Assembly: GCA_963700145.1 (NCBI GenBank)
Contig: OY969474.1
Coordinates: 384,001-448,000, forward strand
DNA: 64,000 bases
DNA from: an uncultured Acidobacteriota bacterium
Lineage (GTDB): Bacteria; Acidobacteriota; Thermoanaerobaculia; Multivoradales; UBA5704
Reading direction: 5' to 3'
In this document: in pieces, positions 23,202 through 28,054 of the stretch
Layout of the letters: each line of letters opens with the position of its first letter
Numbering within the stretch: position 1 is the first letter of the stretch
Made by a program: the position numbers and the translations under genes
The notes under the pieces: generated by a model
Told to the model about the DNA's origin: nothing
Databases searched by the model: none
What the model saw: only the letters and a program-made list of their open reading frames with translations

Positions 23202-24050
23202 CTAGAGGAAACCGTGGAAGTCGGTGAAGAAGAGATTCACCGCGACGATCGAGAAGAGGATCGCTCCCAGGCCGGTCAAGCTCACCAGCGCCGTCTGCCG
23301 CCCCTGCCAGCGGCGCAGACGTTTCAGTAACAGGGCGGTGGCGTAGAGCACCCAGGTGGCGAGGGTGAAGGCGATCTTGGGGTCGCGCACCCAGCCGGCC
23401 TGGCCCAGCCGCTCGGCCCAGAAGGCGCCCACGACGACGGCGCCGGTCAGGGCCAGGAAGCCGGCCCAGAGGGCGCCGGTCATCATCCGCTCCAGCACCT
23501 CGAGCGGCGGCAGCTTGCCGTAGAAGGTCGAGAAACGCCCGGCCTTGAGCTCGCGGTAGAGCTGCAGGAAGAGGAAGCCGTAGCCGGCGGCCACCACGAA
23601 GGCGGCGTAGCCCAGGAGCGCCAGCGAGACGTGGGTGGCGAAGAAGGCGTCGTGGAAGACCGGGCGCGGCGGCGGGTCGGGGCGGACGAGCACCGAGGCC
23701 AGGAGCTGGAAGAGGAAGGCGAGCGAGACCAGCCAGAAGCCGGTCGAGCGCTCCCGCCCGTGCCACTCGACGAAGAGGTAGACCGCGGCCACCGCGAAGG
23801 CGACGCACGACAGGGCCTGCGAGACGGTGGCGGCGGGGAGCTGCGCGTGGCGGGCGGTGAGCGCCGCGAGGTAGGCGAGGTGGAGGAGGAGCGTGCCGGC
23901 GAGGAGCGGCGTGGCGGCCCGCCGCGCCCGCTCGCGGTCCGGCCGCTCCCCCCGCGGCGGCGCGCCGAAGAAGAGCACGGCGTAGGCGACCGCGGCGGCC
24001 AGGTAGGCCACCGGCAGCAGGACGAGGGCGGCGCCGAGGAAGGTGTCCAC
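23202..24050 (-). CDS. ccsA: Cytochrome c assembly protein (CcsA/HemX-like)
   Basis: Multi-TM; conserved His residues, LPPLEVLE, WVRDPK; typical position upstream of hemA. Confidence 0.8.
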   Translation of the reverse strand: MDTFLGAALVLLPVAYLAAAVAYAVLFFGAPPRGERPDRERARRAATPLLAGTLLLHLAYLAALTARHAQLPAATVSQALSCVAFAVAAVYLFVEWHGRERSTGFWLVSLAFLFQLLASVLVRPDPPPRPVFHDAFFATHVSLALLGYAAFVVAAGYGFLFLQLYRELKAGRFSTFYGKLPPLEVLERMMTGALWAGFLALTGAVVVGAFWAERLGQAGWVRDPKIAFTLATWVLYATALLLKRLRRWQGRQTALVSLTGLGAILFSIVAVNLFFTDFHGFL

Positions 24051-24135
24051 GATGGAGGCCCTATGCTACTGTCCAGCGGCCTTTCCCGCACCCTTCGAGA
24101 GCGCCCGCCGGGACCCGCACCACGGATCGACCGCC

Positions 24136-25470
24136 ATGGCCAACGTCGTGATCGTCGGCATGCAGTGGGGGGACGAGGGGAAGGGCAAGATCGTCGACCT
24201 CCTCTGCCCGGCCTTCGATGCCGTGGTGCGCTACCAGGGGGGGAACAACGCCGGCCACACGGTCAAGTTCCGCGACCGCCACTTCGCCCTCAACCTGGTC
24301 CCCTCCGGCGTCCTCCACCCGGAGATGCTCTGCGTGCTGGGCAACGGCATGGTGATCGCCCCCGACGCCCTGCTCGCCGAGCTGGCGAAGCTCTACGAGG
24401 CCGGCGTGCGCTTCGACGGCCGGCTCTTCATCTCCAACCGCGCCCACGTCCTGCTGCCGCCCCACGCCACGCTCGACCAGGCGCGCGAGGGGGCGCGCGG
24501 GCAGACCAAGATCGGCACCACGGCGCGCGGCATCGGACCGGCCTACGAGAGCAAGGTCTCGCGCTACGGCGTGCGCATGGCCGACCTCTTCGCCCCCGAC
24601 CTCGACGACCGCCTGCGGGCGCTGCTGGCGCGCATCGAGGCGGAGCTGCAGAGCCTGGGGGTGGAGGAGTCGGTGGGCCACCCGTCGGCCCTCGCCGACC
24701 AGTGCCGCGCCTGGGGGGAGAAGCTGCGCCCGGCGCTGCGCGACACCGAGCGGCTGCTCAACGAATGGATCGCGGCGGGGAAGAGCCTGCTCTTCGAGGG
24801 AGCGCAGGGGACGCTCCTCGACGTCGACCACGGCAGCTACCCCTTCGTCACCAGCTCGAACACCACGGCCGGCGGCGCCGCCACCGGCACCGGCGTGCCG
24901 CCGTCCCGCCTCGACGGCGCGATCGGCGTGCTCAAGGCCTACACGACGCGCGTCGGCGCCGGCCCCTTCGTCAGCGAGCTCGAGGGCGAGGCGGGGGAGT
25001 TCCTGCGCCGGCGCGGCAACGAGTTCGGCACCGTCACCGGCCGGCCGCGCCGCTGCGGCTGGCTGGACCTGGTCGCCGCCCGCTACGCCCGGCTGCTCAA
25101 CGGCGTCGACGCCATCGCCCTGACCAAGCTCGACGTGCTCGACGACTTCGACGAGCTGCAGGTCTGCGTCGGCTACCGGGTGAACGGCGAGGTGCTGCGC
25201 GAGCTGCCGGCCTCGCGGCACGCCCTGGAGAGCGCCGCGCCGGTGCTGCGGGCGGTCAAGGGCTGGAAACGGAGCACCGGCGGGGTGCTCGAGGTGGCCG
25301 ACCTGCCGCCGGCGGCGCGCGACTACCTGGCGCTGATCGAGGAGGAGGTGGGGGCGCCGGTGGCCCTCGTCTCGACCGGCCCGCGCCGCGAGGAGACCGC
25401 GCTGACCGGCGATCCCGCCCTCGCGCGCCTCACCTCCGGCCGCCTGGCCGCCGTGCTCGCGCAGCGATAA
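24136..25470 (+). CDS. purA: Adenylosuccinate synthetase
   Basis: QWGDEGKGK, GGNNAGHT, FEGAQG, EFGTVTGRPRRCGW, TKLDVL. Confidence 0.97.
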   Translation: MANVVIVGMQWGDEGKGKIVDLLCPAFDAVVRYQGGNNAGHTVKFRDRHFALNLVPSGVLHPEMLCVLGNGMVIAPDALLAELAKLYEAGVRFDGRLFISNRAHVLLPPHATLDQAREGARGQTKIGTTARGIGPAYESKVSRYGVRMADLFAPDLDDRLRALLARIEAELQSLGVEESVGHPSALADQCRAWGEKLRPALRDTERLLNEWIAAGKSLLFEGAQGTLLDVDHGSYPFVTSSNTTAGGAATGTGVPPSRLDGAIGVLKAYTTRVGAGPFVSELEGEAGEFLRRRGNEFGTVTGRPRRCGWLDLVAARYARLLNGVDAIALTKLDVLDDFDELQVCVGYRVNGEVLRELPASRHALESAAPVLRAVKGWKRSTGGVLEVADLPPAARDYLALIEEEVGAPVALVSTGPRREETALTGDPALARLTSGRLAAVLAQR

Positions 25471-25528
25471 GGCGCGGCTTTCGCGCCGGGCTCCGATCGA
25501 CCGCGAGCGGGCCTTCTATACTCCATCC

Positions 25529-25604
25529 GGGCGGTTAGCTCAGCTGGCAGAGCAACGGGCTTTTAACCCGTGGGTCCAGGGTTCGATCCCCTGACCGCCC
25601 ACCA
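25529..25604 (+). tRNA. tRNA-Lys (anticodon TTT)
   Basis: 76 nt; GGGCGGT/ACCGCCC acceptor stem, ACGGG-CTTTTAA-CCCGT anticodon arm, GTTCGATC T-loop, encoded CCA; TATACT -10 at 25517. Confidence 0.97.
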
Positions 25605-25617
25605 CCGTTCCAGCTTT

Positions 25618-25975
25618 GCGGTCCTCAACCTACGCGCTTTGGCTGCCGAATGGAGCGCCGCGGTCCTCTACTTACGCGGTTCGGCGCTCCATTAGAGGGT
25701 CGCGGTCCTCAACCTACGCGGTTTGCCGGGCCGTTGGGCTGGGTTGCCTGCCGAAATGGCAGATTTTGTCCTCGGCTTACGCGGTTCGTCCGGCAAACCG
25801 ATAGAGTCTGTCCTCGGTTTACGCAGTTCGTCCGCAGACCCAGCCCAATCGGTCCTCAGCTTACGCAGTCGGCCGCGCGCGAAGGGCTCCGCGGTCCCCA
25901 ACTTACGCACTTGGCCCGCCGACCCGGTCCAATCGCGCGCCGCCGGAGCTTCGCCGGTCCTCAACCTACGCAGTC
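25618..25975 (+). repeat. 8-copy interspaced direct-repeat array with 21-bp phasing
   Basis: Core GTCCTC-NNYY-TACGC at 25621, 25663, 25705, 25768, 25810, 25852, 25894 (GTCCCC), 25957; spacings 42,42,63,42,42,42,63. Confidence 0.9.
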
Positions 25976-26006
25976 GGCCGCGGCGCGCTGCTACGCTGCC
26001 GCGCGA

Positions 26007-26879
26007 ATGAGCCAACCGGAGCTGGTGATCATGGCCGCGGGCATGGGCTCGCGCTTCGGCGGGGCCAAGCAGGTTGTGCCCGTCGGTCCCGGCGGCGAGA
26101 TCGTCCTCGACTACTCGGTCTGGGACGCGGCGCGCGCCGGCGTCGAGCGGGTGGTCTTTGTCATCCGGCGCGACATGGAAGAGGACTTCAACACCCGCCA
26201 CGGCAGCCGCTACGCGGGCCGGCTGGACGTCGCCTACGCTTTCCAGGAGCTGGAGGGGCGGCGGAAGCCCTGGGGGACGGCGCACGCGGTCCTTGCGGCG
26301 CGGCCGCAAGTCGGCGGGCCGTTCATGGTCGTCAACGCCGACGACTTCTACGGCGCCGAGGCGTTCGCCCGGATGGCCGAGTTCCTGCGCGGCGAGCCGC
26401 GCGACTACGCGATGGTCGGCTACGAGCTGGGGAAGACGCTCTCGCCGCACGGCCGCGTCGCGCGCGGCGTCTGCGCGGTGGAGCCCGACGGCACCCTCCG
26501 CGCCGTCGTCGAGCACACCGCGATCGAGCCGGCGGACGGCGGCGCGCGCGCGGTCGAGCCGGGCGGCGGCGAGGTCCGCTTCACCGGCCGCGAGCCGGTG
26601 TCGATGAACTTCTGGGGCTTCCTCCCCGACCTCTTCCCCCGCCTCGAGGAGCGCTTCGCCCGCTTCCTCGCCGAGTGCGGCGACGACCCCGCGGCTGAGC
26701 TCTACATCCCGTCGGTCGTCGACGAGCTCATCCACGAGGGACAGGCGCGCGTCCGTGTCCTCCCCACCTCCGGCCGCTGGTTCGGCATGACCTACCCCGA
26801 GGACCGCGACGAGGTGGCCGCGCGCATCCGCGAGCTGGTCGCCCGCGGCGACTACCCCGAGGAGCTCTGGCCGCGGTAG
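26007..26879 (+). CDS. Sugar-phosphate nucleotidyltransferase family protein
   Basis: MAAGMGSRFGGAKQ, KPWGTAHAV, VNADDFYG, VSMNFWGF, WFGMTY; ATG at 26007. Confidence 0.88.
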   Translation: MSQPELVIMAAGMGSRFGGAKQVVPVGPGGEIVLDYSVWDAARAGVERVVFVIRRDMEEDFNTRHGSRYAGRLDVAYAFQELEGRRKPWGTAHAVLAARPQVGGPFMVVNADDFYGAEAFARMAEFLRGEPRDYAMVGYELGKTLSPHGRVARGVCAVEPDGTLRAVVEHTAIEPADGGARAVEPGGGEVRFTGREPVSMNFWGFLPDLFPRLEERFARFLAECGDDPAAELYIPSVVDELIHEGQARVRVLPTSGRWFGMTYPEDRDEVAARIRELVARGDYPEELWPR

Positions 26880-28054
26880 CGCGCCGCGACGCGCGCGTAG
26901 GCCTCGCGGAAGGGCACCCCTTCGTCCAGCACCAGACGGTAGGCTTCCTCGGCGGCGTGGAGCTCCGGCGGCAGCTCGATGCGCTCGGGGTGGAAGCGCA
27001 CTTCGGGCAGGGCGGCGGCGAGGAGCGCCAGGGTGTCGGCCGCCAGGTCGATGCCGCGGAACAGCGGCGCCTTCAAGAGCTGGAGGTCGCGGTGGTAGCC
27101 GGAGGGGAGCTTAGCGGTCACCGCCAGCGCTTCGAGGAGGCAGGCCTGCGCCGTGGCGCCGCGGCCGCGCACCAGCTCGAGGAGGTCGGGGTTGCGCTTC
27201 TGCGGCATGATCGAGGAGCCGGTGCAGAGGGCCGGCGGCAGGCTGGCGAAGCCCAGCTCGCGCATGCTGAAGAGGATCAGATCGGCGGCCAGCCGCCCGA
27301 GGTCCTGCATCAGGAGCGCGATCTCGAAGAGGGCCTGCGCCTCCGCCTTGCCGCGCGAGAGCTGGACCGCCGTCACCGGCTCGTGCACCACGGCGAAGCC
27401 GAGCCGCGCCCGCGTCGCCTCGCGGTCGAGGGGCAGCAGCGGCACCCCGTACCCCGCCGCCGAGCCGAGCGGGCTCTTGTCGGCGCGGCGCAGCGCCGCG
27501 GCGAGCCCCTCGGCATCGTCGCGCAGCTCGGCCGCGAAGCCGCCGGCCCAGAGCGGCACCGAGCTTGGCATCGCCGGCTGCATGTGGGTGTAGCCGGGGA
27601 GCGGCGTGGCGGCTTCGCGCGCGGCCAGGCCGTCGAGCGCCGCCGCCACCTCGAGCGTCCCGTCGCGCAGCGCGGCGAGCGCGTCGCGCAGGTAGAGGCG
27701 GAGCGCCGCCAGCACCTGGTCGTTGCGCGAGCGGCCGAGGTGGAGGCGCCCGCCGGCGGCGCCGATCCGCGCCGTCAGACGCCGCTCGAGCGCGGTGTGG
27801 ACGTCCTCGTCGGCCAGCTCGATCGCCCAGCCGCCGGCGGCGTGCTCGGCGGCGAGGGCCGCGAGGCCGGCGCGGATCGCCGCCAGGTCGTGGGCGGCGA
27901 GGAGGCCGGCGGCGTGGAGCCCTTCGGCATGGGCGATGGAGGCTCGCACGTCGTAGGCGACGAGCCGCGCGTCGAGCCGGTGGTCCTCGCCGGCGGTGTA
28001 GCGGAGCACCCGCTCGTCGAGCGGCTCCCCCGCGTCCCAGAGGCGGCCGCTCAT
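26852..28054 (-). CDS. argH: Argininosuccinate lyase
   Basis: GRSRNDQV, GYTHMQ, GSSIMPQKRNPD, GYHRDLQ. Confidence 0.95.
   Translation of the reverse strand: MSGRLWDAGEPLDERVLRYTAGEDHRLDARLVAYDVRASIAHAEGLHAAGLLAAHDLAAIRAGLAALAAEHAAGGWAIELADEDVHTALERRLTARIGAAGGRLHLGRSRNDQVLAALRLYLRDALAALRDGTLEVAAALDGLAAREAATPLPGYTHMQPAMPSSVPLWAGGFAAELRDDAEGLAAALRRADKSPLGSAAGYGVPLLPLDREATRARLGFAVVHEPVTAVQLSRGKAEAQALFEIALLMQDLGRLAADLILFSMRELGFASLPPALCTGSSIMPQKRNPDLLELVRGRGATAQACLLEALAVTAKLPSGYHRDLQLLKAPLFRGIDLAADTLALLAAALPEVRFHPERIELPPELHAAEEAYRLVLDEGVPFREAYARVAARYRGQSSSG

What the first reader, a model, noticed from the sequence alone, without database searches (positions are those of the whole stretch)
25649..25848. 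Spacers of the array are reverse complements of each other
Seen: AATGGAGCGCCG (25649-60) pairs with CGGCGCTCCATT (25682-93) and loops out exactly 21 nt containing core 2. CGGTTTGCCGG (25719-29) pairs with CCGGCAAACCG (25790-800). TTGGGCTGGGT (25734-44) pairs with ACCCAGCCCAA (25838-48). There is also a CTGCC-GAAAT-GGCAG hairpin (25748-62). The second and third pairings cross, implying a pseudoknot or alternative folds. Inference: a structured ncRNA displaying the conserved core in loops (protein-sponge or scaffold logic, as in CsrB-type RNAs), or spacers copied from the opposite strand of the array.
Basis: partly seen in the sequence, partly recalled or inferred. Interest (0 to 1): 0.75.

Follow-up and report, generated by a model that had tools for sequence, protein, structure and literature searches.

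The report
Helically phased DNA repeat array
The mutually complementary "spacers" are copies of one 21-base repeat unit lying in both directions inside a non-coding DNA array, which is more likely a row of docking sites for a lineage-specific DNA-binding protein than a folded RNA.

Summary
All three perfect inverted repeats (12, 11 and 11 nt), the 21-nt loop and the small hairpin lie at the stated coordinates, and together they exceed chance.

The RNA reading is not supported.
- The fold is no more stable than shuffled sequence on the + strand.
- Eleven copies from four congeneric genomes and one metagenome contig show no covariation.
- The 12-bp stem is private to this copy.
- The stem arms drift about as fast as silent codon positions.

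The true period is 21 nt. Several "spacers" are degenerate units of one repeat family, some forward and some inverted, so they are complementary by construction.

Selection acts on the eight cores (GTCCTC-N4-TACGC) and on one small palindrome. Cores diverge 2.5% between orthologues, against 17% for spacers.

New here: sibling arrays begin about 20 nt after the stop codon of an XRE-type helix-turn-helix gene.
- All six close paralogues in this genome are followed by a 21-nt-period array.
- So are about half of the homologous loci checked in other genomes.

This copy, after tRNA-Lys, is an orphan. Protein binding is inferred, not shown.

The scan had noted 21-bp-period arrays before, in this genome and in other phyla, but without a candidate protein.

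The parts
24043..25470 (+). Upstream gene, adenylosuccinate synthetase (purA). Context only.
   Evidence: ORF. Pfam Adenylsucc_synt, E 3e-168.
25529..25604 (+). tRNA-Lys (UUU). The array starts 16 nt after its 3' end. Only this copy of the element follows a tRNA.
   Evidence: ARAGORN. Rfam tRNA, 70 bits. Aragorn on the six paralogous loci found 1 tRNA.
25605..25985 (+). The whole element, about 380 bp. It is a mosaic of about 18 units of 21 nt: 8 strong cores (A units) at spacings of 42, 42, 63, 42, 42, 42 and 63, with degenerate units between them.
   Evidence: It aligns over its full length with 10 other copies (alignment A1).
25621..25635 (+). Core A1, GTCCTC-N4-TACGC.
   Evidence: Exact pattern match.
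25663..25677 (+). Core A2. This is the core looped out by pairing 1.
25705..25719 (+). Core A3.
25768..25782 (+). Core A4.
25810..25824 (+). Core A5 (one mismatch to the pattern).
25852..25866 (+). Core A6.
25894..25908 (+). Core A7 (one mismatch to the pattern).
25957..25971 (+). Core A8, the last core, 36 nt before the start codon of the next gene.
25641..25660 (+). Spacer S1. It is a unit of the G-rich type, in inverted orientation relative to the C-rich unit consensus. It carries the 5' arm of pairing 1.
   Evidence: 14 of 20 matches to the reverse complement of the unit consensus, shuffle p = 0.007. Arm confirmed.
25682..25693 (+). 3' arm of pairing 1 (tail of core 2 plus the start of spacer S2). 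Its complementarity is private to this lineage.
   Evidence: Arm divergence between orthologues is 19.4%.
25719..25729 (+). 5' arm of pairing 2 (tail of core A3).
   Evidence: 89% of cells pair across the 11 copies.
25725..25745 (+). Spacer S3a, an inverted-orientation unit that carries the 5' arm of pairing 3 (25734-25744).
   Evidence: 14 of 21 matches in reverse orientation, p = 0.016..
25748..25762 (+). Small palindrome or hairpin, CTGCC-GAAAT-GGCAG. Its centre GCCGAAATGGC is invariant in all 11 copies.
   Evidence: Orthologue divergence is 1 of 90.
25790..25800 (+). 3' arm of pairing 2, in spacer S4.
25830..25849 (+). Spacer S5, a forward C-rich unit that carries the 3' arm of pairing 3 (25838-25848).
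   Evidence: 16 of 20 matches in forward orientation, p < 0.001..
25914..25934 (+). Spacer S7a, a second forward C-rich unit. It is a diverged copy of the pairing-3 3' arm.
   Evidence: 18 of 21 matches in forward orientation, p < 0.001.
26007..26879 (+). Downstream gene, a MobA-like nucleotidyltransferase. The longer ORF 25650-26879 that runs through the array is an artefact of GC-rich sequence.
   Evidence: ORF list. Pfam NTP_transf_3, E 1e-10. The start region is 90-95% identical in orthologues.

Best explanation
The feature is a duplex-DNA element, not a folded RNA. It is a ~380-bp mosaic of 21-bp (two helical turns) repeat units. Eight units keep a bipartite core, GTCCTC-N4-TACGC, always at multiples of 21 bp and so on one face of the helix. 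The units between them are degenerate members of the same repeat family. Some lie forward (S5, S7a) and some inverted (S1, S3a, S3b), and that is why the spacers are reverse complements of each other.

I infer that the cores are docking sites for a lineage-specific XRE-type helix-turn-helix protein. Its paralogous genes sit immediately upstream of sibling arrays. The most likely candidates are the two paralogues at genome positions 1364606-1365037 and 33012-33443, whose own arrays carry the same core. On this reading, the copy after tRNA-Lys is an orphan array bound in trans.

What such a protein row would do is not known. My best guess is an operator, roadblock or insulator in front of the next gene, or a titration site.

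Shown: the repeat anatomy, the selection on the cores, and the gene-array adjacency. Inferred: binding and function.
For: 1. Period 21.
- 75 of 76 core-to-core spacings in the 11 full copies are within 1 nt of a multiple of 21.
- Some copies carry plain 21-nt core spacings.

2. Orientation of the units. The unit consensus was built from 37 units of three pure inverted arrays elsewhere in the genome.
- S5 (16/20) and S7a (18/21) match it forward, p < 0.001.
- S1 (14/20, p = 0.007), S3a (14/21, p = 0.016) and S3b (12/20, p = 0.046) match it in reverse.

3. Selection pattern, summed over 6 orthologue pairs.
- The 11 fixed core positions differ at 13 of 527 sites (2.5%).
- The N4 positions differ at 47 of 192 (24.5%), the spacers at 219 of 1282 (17.1%), and the pairing-1 arms at 19.4%.
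- Third codon positions of the flanking genes differ by 5-16%.

4. The exact core pattern occurs 24 times in the genome, all in six arrays of the same architecture.

5. Gene-array link.
- An XRE-type HTH ORF (Pfam HTH_3 and HTH_31) ends 21 nt before the first core of the 1365k and 32k arrays.
- All 6 close paralogues in this genome have a best downstream autocorrelation lag of 21, 42 or 63. None of 5 distant ones does.
- In 30 loci, 28 of them from other genomes, 17 have at least 4 GTCC spacings of 20/21 nt or multiples downstream of the gene. The upstream control gives 2 of 30.
- Downstream, GTCC occurs 208 times on the coding strand, against 56 for its complement.

6. The protein's predicted fold is closest to XRE DNA-binding domains: HigA-DNA, SinR and lambda cI.

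7. No conserved partner gene accompanies the pair.
Against: - No binding experiment exists.
- This particular copy has no HTH gene next to it.
- Only about half of the family's loci have an array: 17 of 30 and 3 of 12, plus one with lag 21 but no GTCC.
- GTCC-phased chains are not unique in this genome. There are 21, against 8, 52 and 24 for control tetramers, because the genome holds 119 arrays with periods of 21 bp or multiples, of many sequences.
- The link between recognition-helix residues (GHGR versus GHGN/S) and array type (20-nt GTCCC versus 21-nt GTCCT) is confounded by ancestry.
- Unit-sized indels and core homogeneity could also come from slippage and gene conversion.
- Similarity of the A cores to the spacer unit is weak: 10-13 of 21 matches, p = 0.03-0.64.
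- S2, S4, S6 and S7b do not match the unit consensus significantly, so pairing 2 and half of pairing 1 are only loosely explained by inverted units.
- Two substitutions specific to this genome in the pairing-1 arms both create base pairs. This hints at some force that perfects that inverted repeat.
- Foldseek found no match at E <= 0.001.
Confidence: 0.6

Rival explanations
1. Structured non-coding RNA. The array would be transcribed, for instance as the trailer of tRNA-Lys or as the 3' UTR of the upstream gene in sibling copies. It would fold through the spacer pairings and present the cores to an RNA-binding protein.
For: - Three perfect inverted repeats exceed chance.
- The register is specific: 80% of cells pair, against 27-46% when partners are slid by 1-3 columns.
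- There are a few double changes: 4 pairs and 6 cells, for example G-C to A-U in pairing 3 of one copy and U-A to C-G in pairing 2.
- The hairpin tolerates a U-G change in 3 copies.
- No terminator lies between the tRNA and the array.
- In HTH-linked siblings the array is always co-oriented with the gene.
- Two derived substitutions in this genome perfect pairing 1.
Against: - The + strand fold has z = -0.99, and 16 of 100 shuffles fold as well.
- Covariation is indistinguishable from column shuffles on all five measures. The alifold covariation term is -0.31.
- Pairing 1 is not conserved: 65% of cells pair.
- GU versus AC mismatches are 9:6 in pairing 2 and 3:4 in pairing 3, so neither strand is favoured.
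- The arms drift at 9-19% while the cores stay at 2.5%.
- Only 1 of 8 cores would sit in a loop.
- Many arrays of the same class elsewhere in the genome have palindromes with a 0-2 nt centre, which cannot form RNA hairpins.
- No Rfam match and no CsrA gene.
- Periods of 20 or 21 nt across genera fit the DNA helix, not an RNA requirement.
Confidence: 0.12
2. Functionless repeat DNA. A minisatellite-like array would spread by duplication, its cores kept alike by slippage and gene conversion. Its inverted repeats would be made or perfected by template switching during replication (quasi-palindrome correction).
For: - Spacers and the N4 centres evolve at or above the silent-site rate.
- Whole 21-nt units are gained and lost between copies.
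- Copies sit in unrelated contexts.
- One copy is split by an insertion of about 600 bp.
- The array is absent after tRNA-Lys in congener G003.
- Pairing 1 became perfect through lineage-specific changes on both arms.
Against: - Divergence is tenfold lower at exactly 11 core positions, with the 4 bases between them free. That is hard to obtain from conversion, which would homogenise whole units.
- An 11-nt palindrome centre is invariant in all 11 copies.
- The 8-core architecture is retained position by position in four genomes and a metagenome contig.
- The association with one gene family holds across at least 7 genera.
Confidence: 0.13
3. A DNA secondary-structure element of the REP/BIME kind. 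The inverted units would extrude as hairpins or cruciforms and act on supercoiling, replication or transcription termination. No dedicated HTH partner would be needed.
For: - Units occur in both orientations.
- Three loci are pure inverted arrays with long hairpin potential.
- 91 of 119 arrays are intergenic by a crude ORF caller.
- Some arrays abut terminator-like hairpins.
Against: - The complementary arms are not the conserved parts.
- Pairings 2 and 3 carry mismatches in 7-9 of the 11 copies.
- No Y1 (RAYT-type) transposase was found in the genome.
- The most conserved parts are direct, non-palindromic cores.
Confidence: 0.07

Closest known systems
Repeated centromeres next to the gene of their binding protein (F-plasmid sopB-sopC, P1 parB-parS). 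Recalled from general knowledge. Segrosome papers PMC5016525, PMC3074162 and PMC3130281 were seen only as search listings with abstract starts.
   Same: Tandem direct repeats in helical phase (here 42 and 63 bp; sopC is recalled as 12 x 43 bp). Each repeat holds a short protein-recognition motif. In sibling copies the array lies directly downstream of a small DNA-binding protein's gene.
   Different: The arrays are chromosomal and occur in many copies. No ParA-type or other conserved partner gene was found. The protein is an XRE-type HTH, not ParB or RHH. It has no homologue on 72,556 plasmid records. This copy has no protein gene beside it.
Iteron arrays of theta-replicating plasmids, and chromosomal titration sites such as datA (recalled).
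   Same: Direct repeats of about 20 bp, spaced at about two helical turns, with conserved cores and free linkers.
   Different: No Rep initiator or origin features were seen. Eight cores alternate with degenerate and inverted units. There are dozens of arrays per chromosome.
REP / BIME / REPIN elements. PMC3733652 and PMC3116915 were seen only as search listings with abstract starts.
   Same: Intergenic mosaics built from a small set of short units in both orientations, in multiple copies per genome.
   Different: The period is a strict 21 bp. The conserved part is a non-palindromic direct core. No RAYT-type Y1 transposase was found. Copy number is low: six arrays with this core.
CsrB/RsmZ-type protein-sponge RNAs
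   Same: A short motif repeated many times in about 400 nt.
   Different: There is no GGA motif on the + strand. Only one core lies in a stem-loop, and that stem is not conserved. No CsrA gene was found and no Rfam match.

Membership tests
CsrB/RsmZ-type sponge sRNA | Many GGA-containing motifs presented in hairpin loops | tested here: not met
   The + strand cores read GUCCUC..UACGC. GAGGAC exists only on the - strand. One of 8 cores is looped by a perfect stem, and that stem pairs 5-9 of 12 in the other 10 copies.
CsrB/RsmZ-type sponge sRNA | Cognate CsrA/RsmA protein encoded in the genome | tested here: not met
   PF02599 was not found in the 95%-complete single-contig genome. The control genomes E. 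coli, B. subtilis and T. maritima were positive.
Conserved structured ncRNA (any family) | Base pairs supported by covariation beyond what sequence conservation gives | tested here: not met
   80.0% of cells pair, against 79.6% in column shuffles. The covariation score is 0.126 against 0.117, and 93 of 500 shuffles reach it. The alifold covariation term is -0.31. With only 11 related copies, power is limited.
Conserved structured ncRNA (any family) | Fold more stable than shuffled sequence | tested here: not met
   z = -0.99 on the + strand and -2.08 on the - strand.
Conserved structured ncRNA (any family) | Match to a curated RNA family | tested here: not met
   The Rfam E-value scan of 24500-27000 found only the tRNA above threshold.
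Conserved structured ncRNA (any family) | A transcript of defined ends | not testable with these tools
   No RNA data could be examined.
CRISPR array | Identical repeats separated by unique, locus-specific spacers | tested here: not met
   The spacers are conserved position by position across 11 copies at different loci and are related to one another. cas genes were not searched.
Repeated centromere / iteron-type protein docking array | Direct repeats with a conserved core at a spacing that is a multiple of the helical repeat | tested here: met
   The spacings are 42 and 63 bp. 75 of 76 spacings in 11 copies are within 1 nt of a multiple of 21. Cores diverge 2.5%, against 17-24% for their surroundings.
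Repeated centromere / iteron-type protein docking array | Gene of the binding protein adjacent to the array | tested here: inconclusive
   Met for sibling arrays: 6 of 6 close HTH paralogues in this genome, and 17 of 30 loci overall. Not met for this copy, which has tRNA-Lys upstream.
Repeated centromere / iteron-type protein docking array | Partition ATPase or Rep initiator in the same locus | tested here: not met
   Clustering of all neighbouring ORFs of 30 loci gave no recurrent partner family.
Repeated centromere / iteron-type protein docking array | Demonstrated binding of the protein to the repeats | not testable with these tools
   This needs gel shift, footprinting or DAP-seq.
REP/BIME/REPIN | RAYT (Y1) transposase in the genome | tested here: not met
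   PF01797 was not found in the genome. 6 of 14 control genomes were positive.
REP/BIME/REPIN | Units are imperfect palindromes in alternating orientation | tested here: inconclusive
   Units occur in both orientations. But the conserved cores are direct and non-palindromic.

The most novel reading that the evidence does not exclude
One family-level lineage of Thermoanaerobaculia carries an expanded set of small XRE-type DNA-binding proteins (6 to 16 per genome where counted). Many of them are encoded as a two-part module with their own helically phased docking array directly after the stop codon. Further orphan arrays with the same cores are scattered over the chromosome, and the array in this window is one of them. 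This would be an undescribed chromosomal protein-plus-array system, acting for example as programmable roadblocks, insulators or titration sites. It would also give the first candidate binding protein for the 21-bp-period arrays that this scan has met in several phyla.
Probability: 0.45. Interest if true: 0.8.

Novelty: new variant of a known kind. Interest (0 to 1): 0.6.

Why it matters
For the finding itself, this shows how a convincing set of perfect stems can arise without any RNA function, simply because one repeat unit is present in both orientations.

Beyond that, the genome holds 119 tandem arrays with periods of 21 bp or multiples, mostly intergenic. Earlier notes of this scan describe similar arrays in this genome and in other phyla, with no protein attached. 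Linking one sequence class of these arrays to one gene family turns an unexplained repeat class into a directly testable protein-DNA hypothesis: one purified protein and one 380-bp DNA fragment.

If the binding holds, the paralogue-specific cores would be a natural set of orthogonal protein/array pairs. They are GTCCTC-N4-TACGC, CCTCGACGTACTGG and GGTCCGAA.

Tried and rejected
- RNA evidence: no RNA holder was listed for window 24000-27500. This says nothing about expression.
- Rfam: no family in the array.
- Coding repeat: 21 nt equals 7 codons, and ORF 25650-26879 is open through the array. I rejected a coding reading. Sibling copies are bounded by a stop codon upstream, and stop codons in two frames separate the array from the next gene. 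The four variable bases in each core are consecutive.
- The two Streptomyces hits of the collection scan: one is a coding heptad repeat inside an ORF, and both are chance matches.
- Phyletic test with five GTCC at exactly 21 or 20 nt: inconclusive. The window's own genome scored 0, and the reversed control pattern also hit many genomes. Arrays in genus g2, where the single-protein search had found no HTH, seemed to contradict the link. A profile search removed the contradiction by finding 9-16 family members in each of the 5 genomes tested.
- TRF on the downstream regions of homologues found few arrays because the units are diverged. Autocorrelation and GTCC spacing worked better.
- General rule "every array follows a related gene": not supported. 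53 of 119 arrays have an ORF ending within 90 nt, but only two small protein clusters emerged. The second cluster has one Pterin_4a protein and two without a Pfam hit, and shows no DNA-binding domain.
- The HTH protein has no specific NCBIfam or PADLOC family, no close solved structure by sequence, and no plasmid or phage homologues. A word-based homologue search gave only 8 proteins.
- Promoter scan: no sigma-70-like site in 25300-26200. The motif TGCTACGCT before the start codon is only an eyeball lead.
- Literature: four full-text searches returned nothing on 21-bp-period chromosomal arrays tied to an XRE gene. I saw only listings and abstract starts, read no paper in full and opened no supplements.
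- Complex prediction was not used, because no claim here depends on oligomerisation.

Full report
**What is there**

The window holds tRNA-Lys(UUU) at 25529-25604. It lies after adenylosuccinate synthetase (24043-25470).
- Sixteen bases after the tRNA comes an array of eight cores matching GTCCTCNNCYTACGC, at 25621, 25663, 25705, 25768, 25810, 25852, 25894 and 25957.
- A MobA-like nucleotidyltransferase gene starts at 26007.
- They exceed chance. Of 2000 dinucleotide shuffles, 110 had any perfect inverted 11-mer and 4 had as many hits as the real sequence.

**It is one of six paralogous elements, restricted to one genus**

The exact core pattern occurs 24 times in the 5.46-Mb genome. All 24 lie in six arrays near 32k, 409k (this one), 904k, 1365k, 1929k and 2431k. 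These arrays share the same eight-core plan and the same spacings; two of them are degenerate or interrupted.

Distribution:
- BLAST found the element in 3 of 4 congeneric genomes and in none of 36 genomes from other genera of the order that were searched.
- A collection scan found it only in two MAGs titled Thermoanaerobaculia bacterium, plus two chance hits in Streptomyces.
- A metagenome scan added five contigs, one of them a new full copy.
- Only this copy follows a tRNA.
- At the orthologous site, G004 and G001 have the array. G003 has the tRNA without it. G002 has an insertion in the tRNA.

**The RNA-structure reading fails**

Folded as RNA, the + strand gives z = -0.99 (16 of 100 shuffles as stable) and the - strand z = -2.08.

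- 80.0% of cells pair, against 79.6% after shuffling partners within columns; 169 of 500 shuffles are as high.
- Four pairs show double changes, against 3.1 expected. Sliding the partners drops pairing to 27-46%.
- So the complementarity is real and in register, but it is carried by sequence conservation, not by compensation.
- RNAalifold's covariation term is -0.31 kcal/mol.

Per helix:
- Pairing 1 is 12/12 here, 9/12 in the closest orthologue and 5-8/12 in the other nine copies.
- Pairing 2 pairs in 89% of cells, pairing 3 in 82% and the hairpin in 91%.

G-U versus A-C mismatches are 9:6 in pairing 2 and 3:4 in pairing 3, so neither strand is favoured. No Rfam family matches and no CsrA gene was found.

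**Where selection acts**

Third codon positions of the flanking genes differ by 5-16% between the three orthologous loci. The array as a whole differs by 10% and 19%.

Summed over six orthologue pairs:

| Class | Differences | Divergence |
|---|---|---|
| 11 fixed core positions | 13 of 527 | 2.5% |
| 4 free bases inside the cores | 47 of 192 | 24.5% |
| Core tails | 44 of 240 | 18.3% |
| Spacers | 219 of 1282 | 17.1% |
| Pairing-1 arms | 14 of 72 each | 19.4% |
| Pairing-2 arms | 6 and 10 of 66 | 9-15% |
| Pairing-3 arms | 7 and 6 of 66 | 9-11% |
| CTGCCGAAATGGCAG | 1 of 90 | 1.1% |

The conserved parts are therefore the direct cores and one small palindrome, not the long-range arms.

**Why the spacers are complementary**

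Laying the copies out unit by unit shows that the real period is 21 nt.
- 75 of 76 core spacings are within 1 nt of a multiple of 21.
- Some copies have plain 21-nt core spacings.
- Indels between copies are whole 21-nt units.

nhmmer then found three loci (near 258k, 2593k and 2661k) that consist of a run of G-rich 21-nt units followed by a run of C-rich units. The C-rich units are the reverse complement of the G-rich ones.

Against the C-rich consensus built from 37 such units:
- S5 (16/20) and S7a (18/21) are forward units.
- S1, S3a and S3b are inverted units (p = 0.007-0.046).
- S2, S4, S6 and S7b are not significant.
- The cores resemble the unit only weakly (10-13 of 21), always in the forward sense.

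Pairing 3 is therefore an inverted unit against a forward unit. Pairing 1 involves an inverted unit. Pairing 2 joins a core tail to a spacer that is not clearly classifiable.

One detail remains unexplained. The two substitutions in the pairing-1 arms that are specific to this genome both create base pairs. That could reflect template-switch correction of a quasi-palindrome, a mechanism I recall from the literature and did not test, or weak selection.

**The wider class**

Tandem Repeats Finder on the whole genome gave 1017 rows, 286 of them with period 21.
- After merging, 119 arrays of at least 100 bp have a period of 21, 42, 63 or 84 (each within 1). Together they cover 24.9 kb.
- 91 are intergenic and 2 are clearly inside genes, by a crude GC3-based ORF caller.
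- Many have a short palindrome at strict 21-bp phase with free linkers. Several of those palindromes have centres too short for an RNA hairpin.
- Earlier notes of this scan describe such arrays in this genome (e1-4446259, e1-750767) and in other phyla (e1-1886494, e1-2327288, e1-4866716), without a binding protein.

**A gene linked to this class of array**

The ORF that ends 21 nt before the first core of the 1365k array, and of its duplicate at 32k, is an XRE-type helix-turn-helix protein (Pfam HTH_3, HTH_31). The ORF before the 904k array is 51% identical to it.

In this genome:
- The six closest paralogues are all followed at once by an array whose best autocorrelation lag is 21, 42 or 63. 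Five distant paralogues are not.
- Only 1.45% of random 400-nt windows reach z >= 3 for lag 20/21.
- Their arrays differ in the second half of the core: GTCCTC-N4-TACGC, CCTCGACGTACTGG, TTACTGGG and GGTCCGAA. The last is the core of the arrays described in note e1-4446259.

In other genomes:
- The family was found in 21 of 33 genomes of the same taxonomic family and in 0 of 167 from other families of the order.
- In a phylum-wide sample it was found in 3 of 401 genomes, all from that family.
- In 30 loci, 17 have at least four GTCC spacings of 20/21 nt or multiples within 460 nt downstream of the gene, against 2 of 30 upstream.
- In two further genera a profile search found 9-16 members per genome. 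Three of 12 loci had such arrays, each lying between two tandem HTH genes.

The protein:
- No partner gene recurs.
- The predicted structure (pLDDT 80) is nearest to XRE DNA-binding domains, though no match reached E <= 0.001.
- Proteins with GHGR in the recognition helix go with 20-nt GTCCC arrays, and those with GHGN/S go with 21-nt GTCCT arrays. Shared ancestry could explain this.

**Reading**

The array in the window is most likely a duplex-DNA docking array, bound in trans by the HTH paralogue or paralogues whose own arrays share its core. The spacer complementarity is a by-product of unit orientation.

My odds:
- About 0.85 that the complementarity comes from inverted units of one repeat family.
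- About 0.8 that no selected RNA fold is involved.
- About 0.55 that this HTH family binds the cores.

Function is open. The last core ends 36 nt before the next gene's start codon, so an operator or roadblock role is my guess. The promoter scan found no sigma-70-like site.

**Limits**
- No RNA data could be obtained.
- Eleven related copies give little power for covariation tests.
- The ORF caller is crude.
- Comparisons with sopC, iterons and quasi-palindrome correction are recalled, not taken from a call.
- The four literature searches returned nothing relevant. I saw only listings and abstract starts, and supplements were not available.

Noticed in passing
G000:C1 whole genome (window = 384001-448000): 119 tandem arrays with periods of 21 bp or multiples (24.9 kb in all), of many unrelated unit sequences. 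Most are intergenic by a crude ORF caller. Many have a short palindrome (for example GGATNNATCC, GGAAGCTTCC, CGGGAAAGCTTTCCCG) at strict 21-bp phase with free linkers.
   Followed up: partly
G000:C1:257871-258279, 2593360-2593733, 2660844-2661194: Three arrays built as a run of G-rich 21-nt units followed by a run of their reverse complement. They have long hairpin or cruciform potential. The three loci share no flanking sequence.
   Followed up: partly
G000:C1:3762243-3763350 (locus L082): An HTH paralogue followed by about 25 units with GGTCCGAA at strict 21-nt phase.
   Followed up: partly
G000:C1:31112-34491 and 1363558-1366921 (loci L016, L013): A segmental duplication of the module HTH gene - array - Ku gene. 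A MerR-type gene follows Ku in L013. The array also precedes Ku in congeners G004 and G001.
   Followed up: partly
G000:C1:2431253-2432101 (locus L025): A sixth copy of the element is split by an insertion of about 600 bp that carries a DUF4143 ORF fragment.
   Followed up: no
window 25986-26009: TGCTACGCT, which resembles an extended -10 element, lies 9 nt before the ATG of the downstream gene. It is conserved in the two orthologues (the stretch from array end to ATG is 90-95% identical). A similar TGCTACACT precedes Ku in the sibling locus. This suggests near-leaderless transcripts starting just after the array. The consensus promoter scan did not flag it.
   Followed up: no
locus L106 / L107 (G002:C28): In congener G002 the orthologous tRNA-Lys is interrupted. 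A second copy of its 3' part lies about 4 kb away, as expected for an element integrated into the tRNA gene.
   Followed up: no
window 25748-25771: The conserved palindrome is followed here by ATTTTG and scores as the only terminator-like site in 25300-26200. The T-run is absent in the sibling copies at 32k and 1365k.
   Followed up: partly
loci L109/L115, L108/L118, L110/L119 (genomes G023, G597, G015): Tandem pairs of HTH paralogues with a GTCC-phased array between them. These genera carry 9-16 family members per genome.
   Followed up: partly
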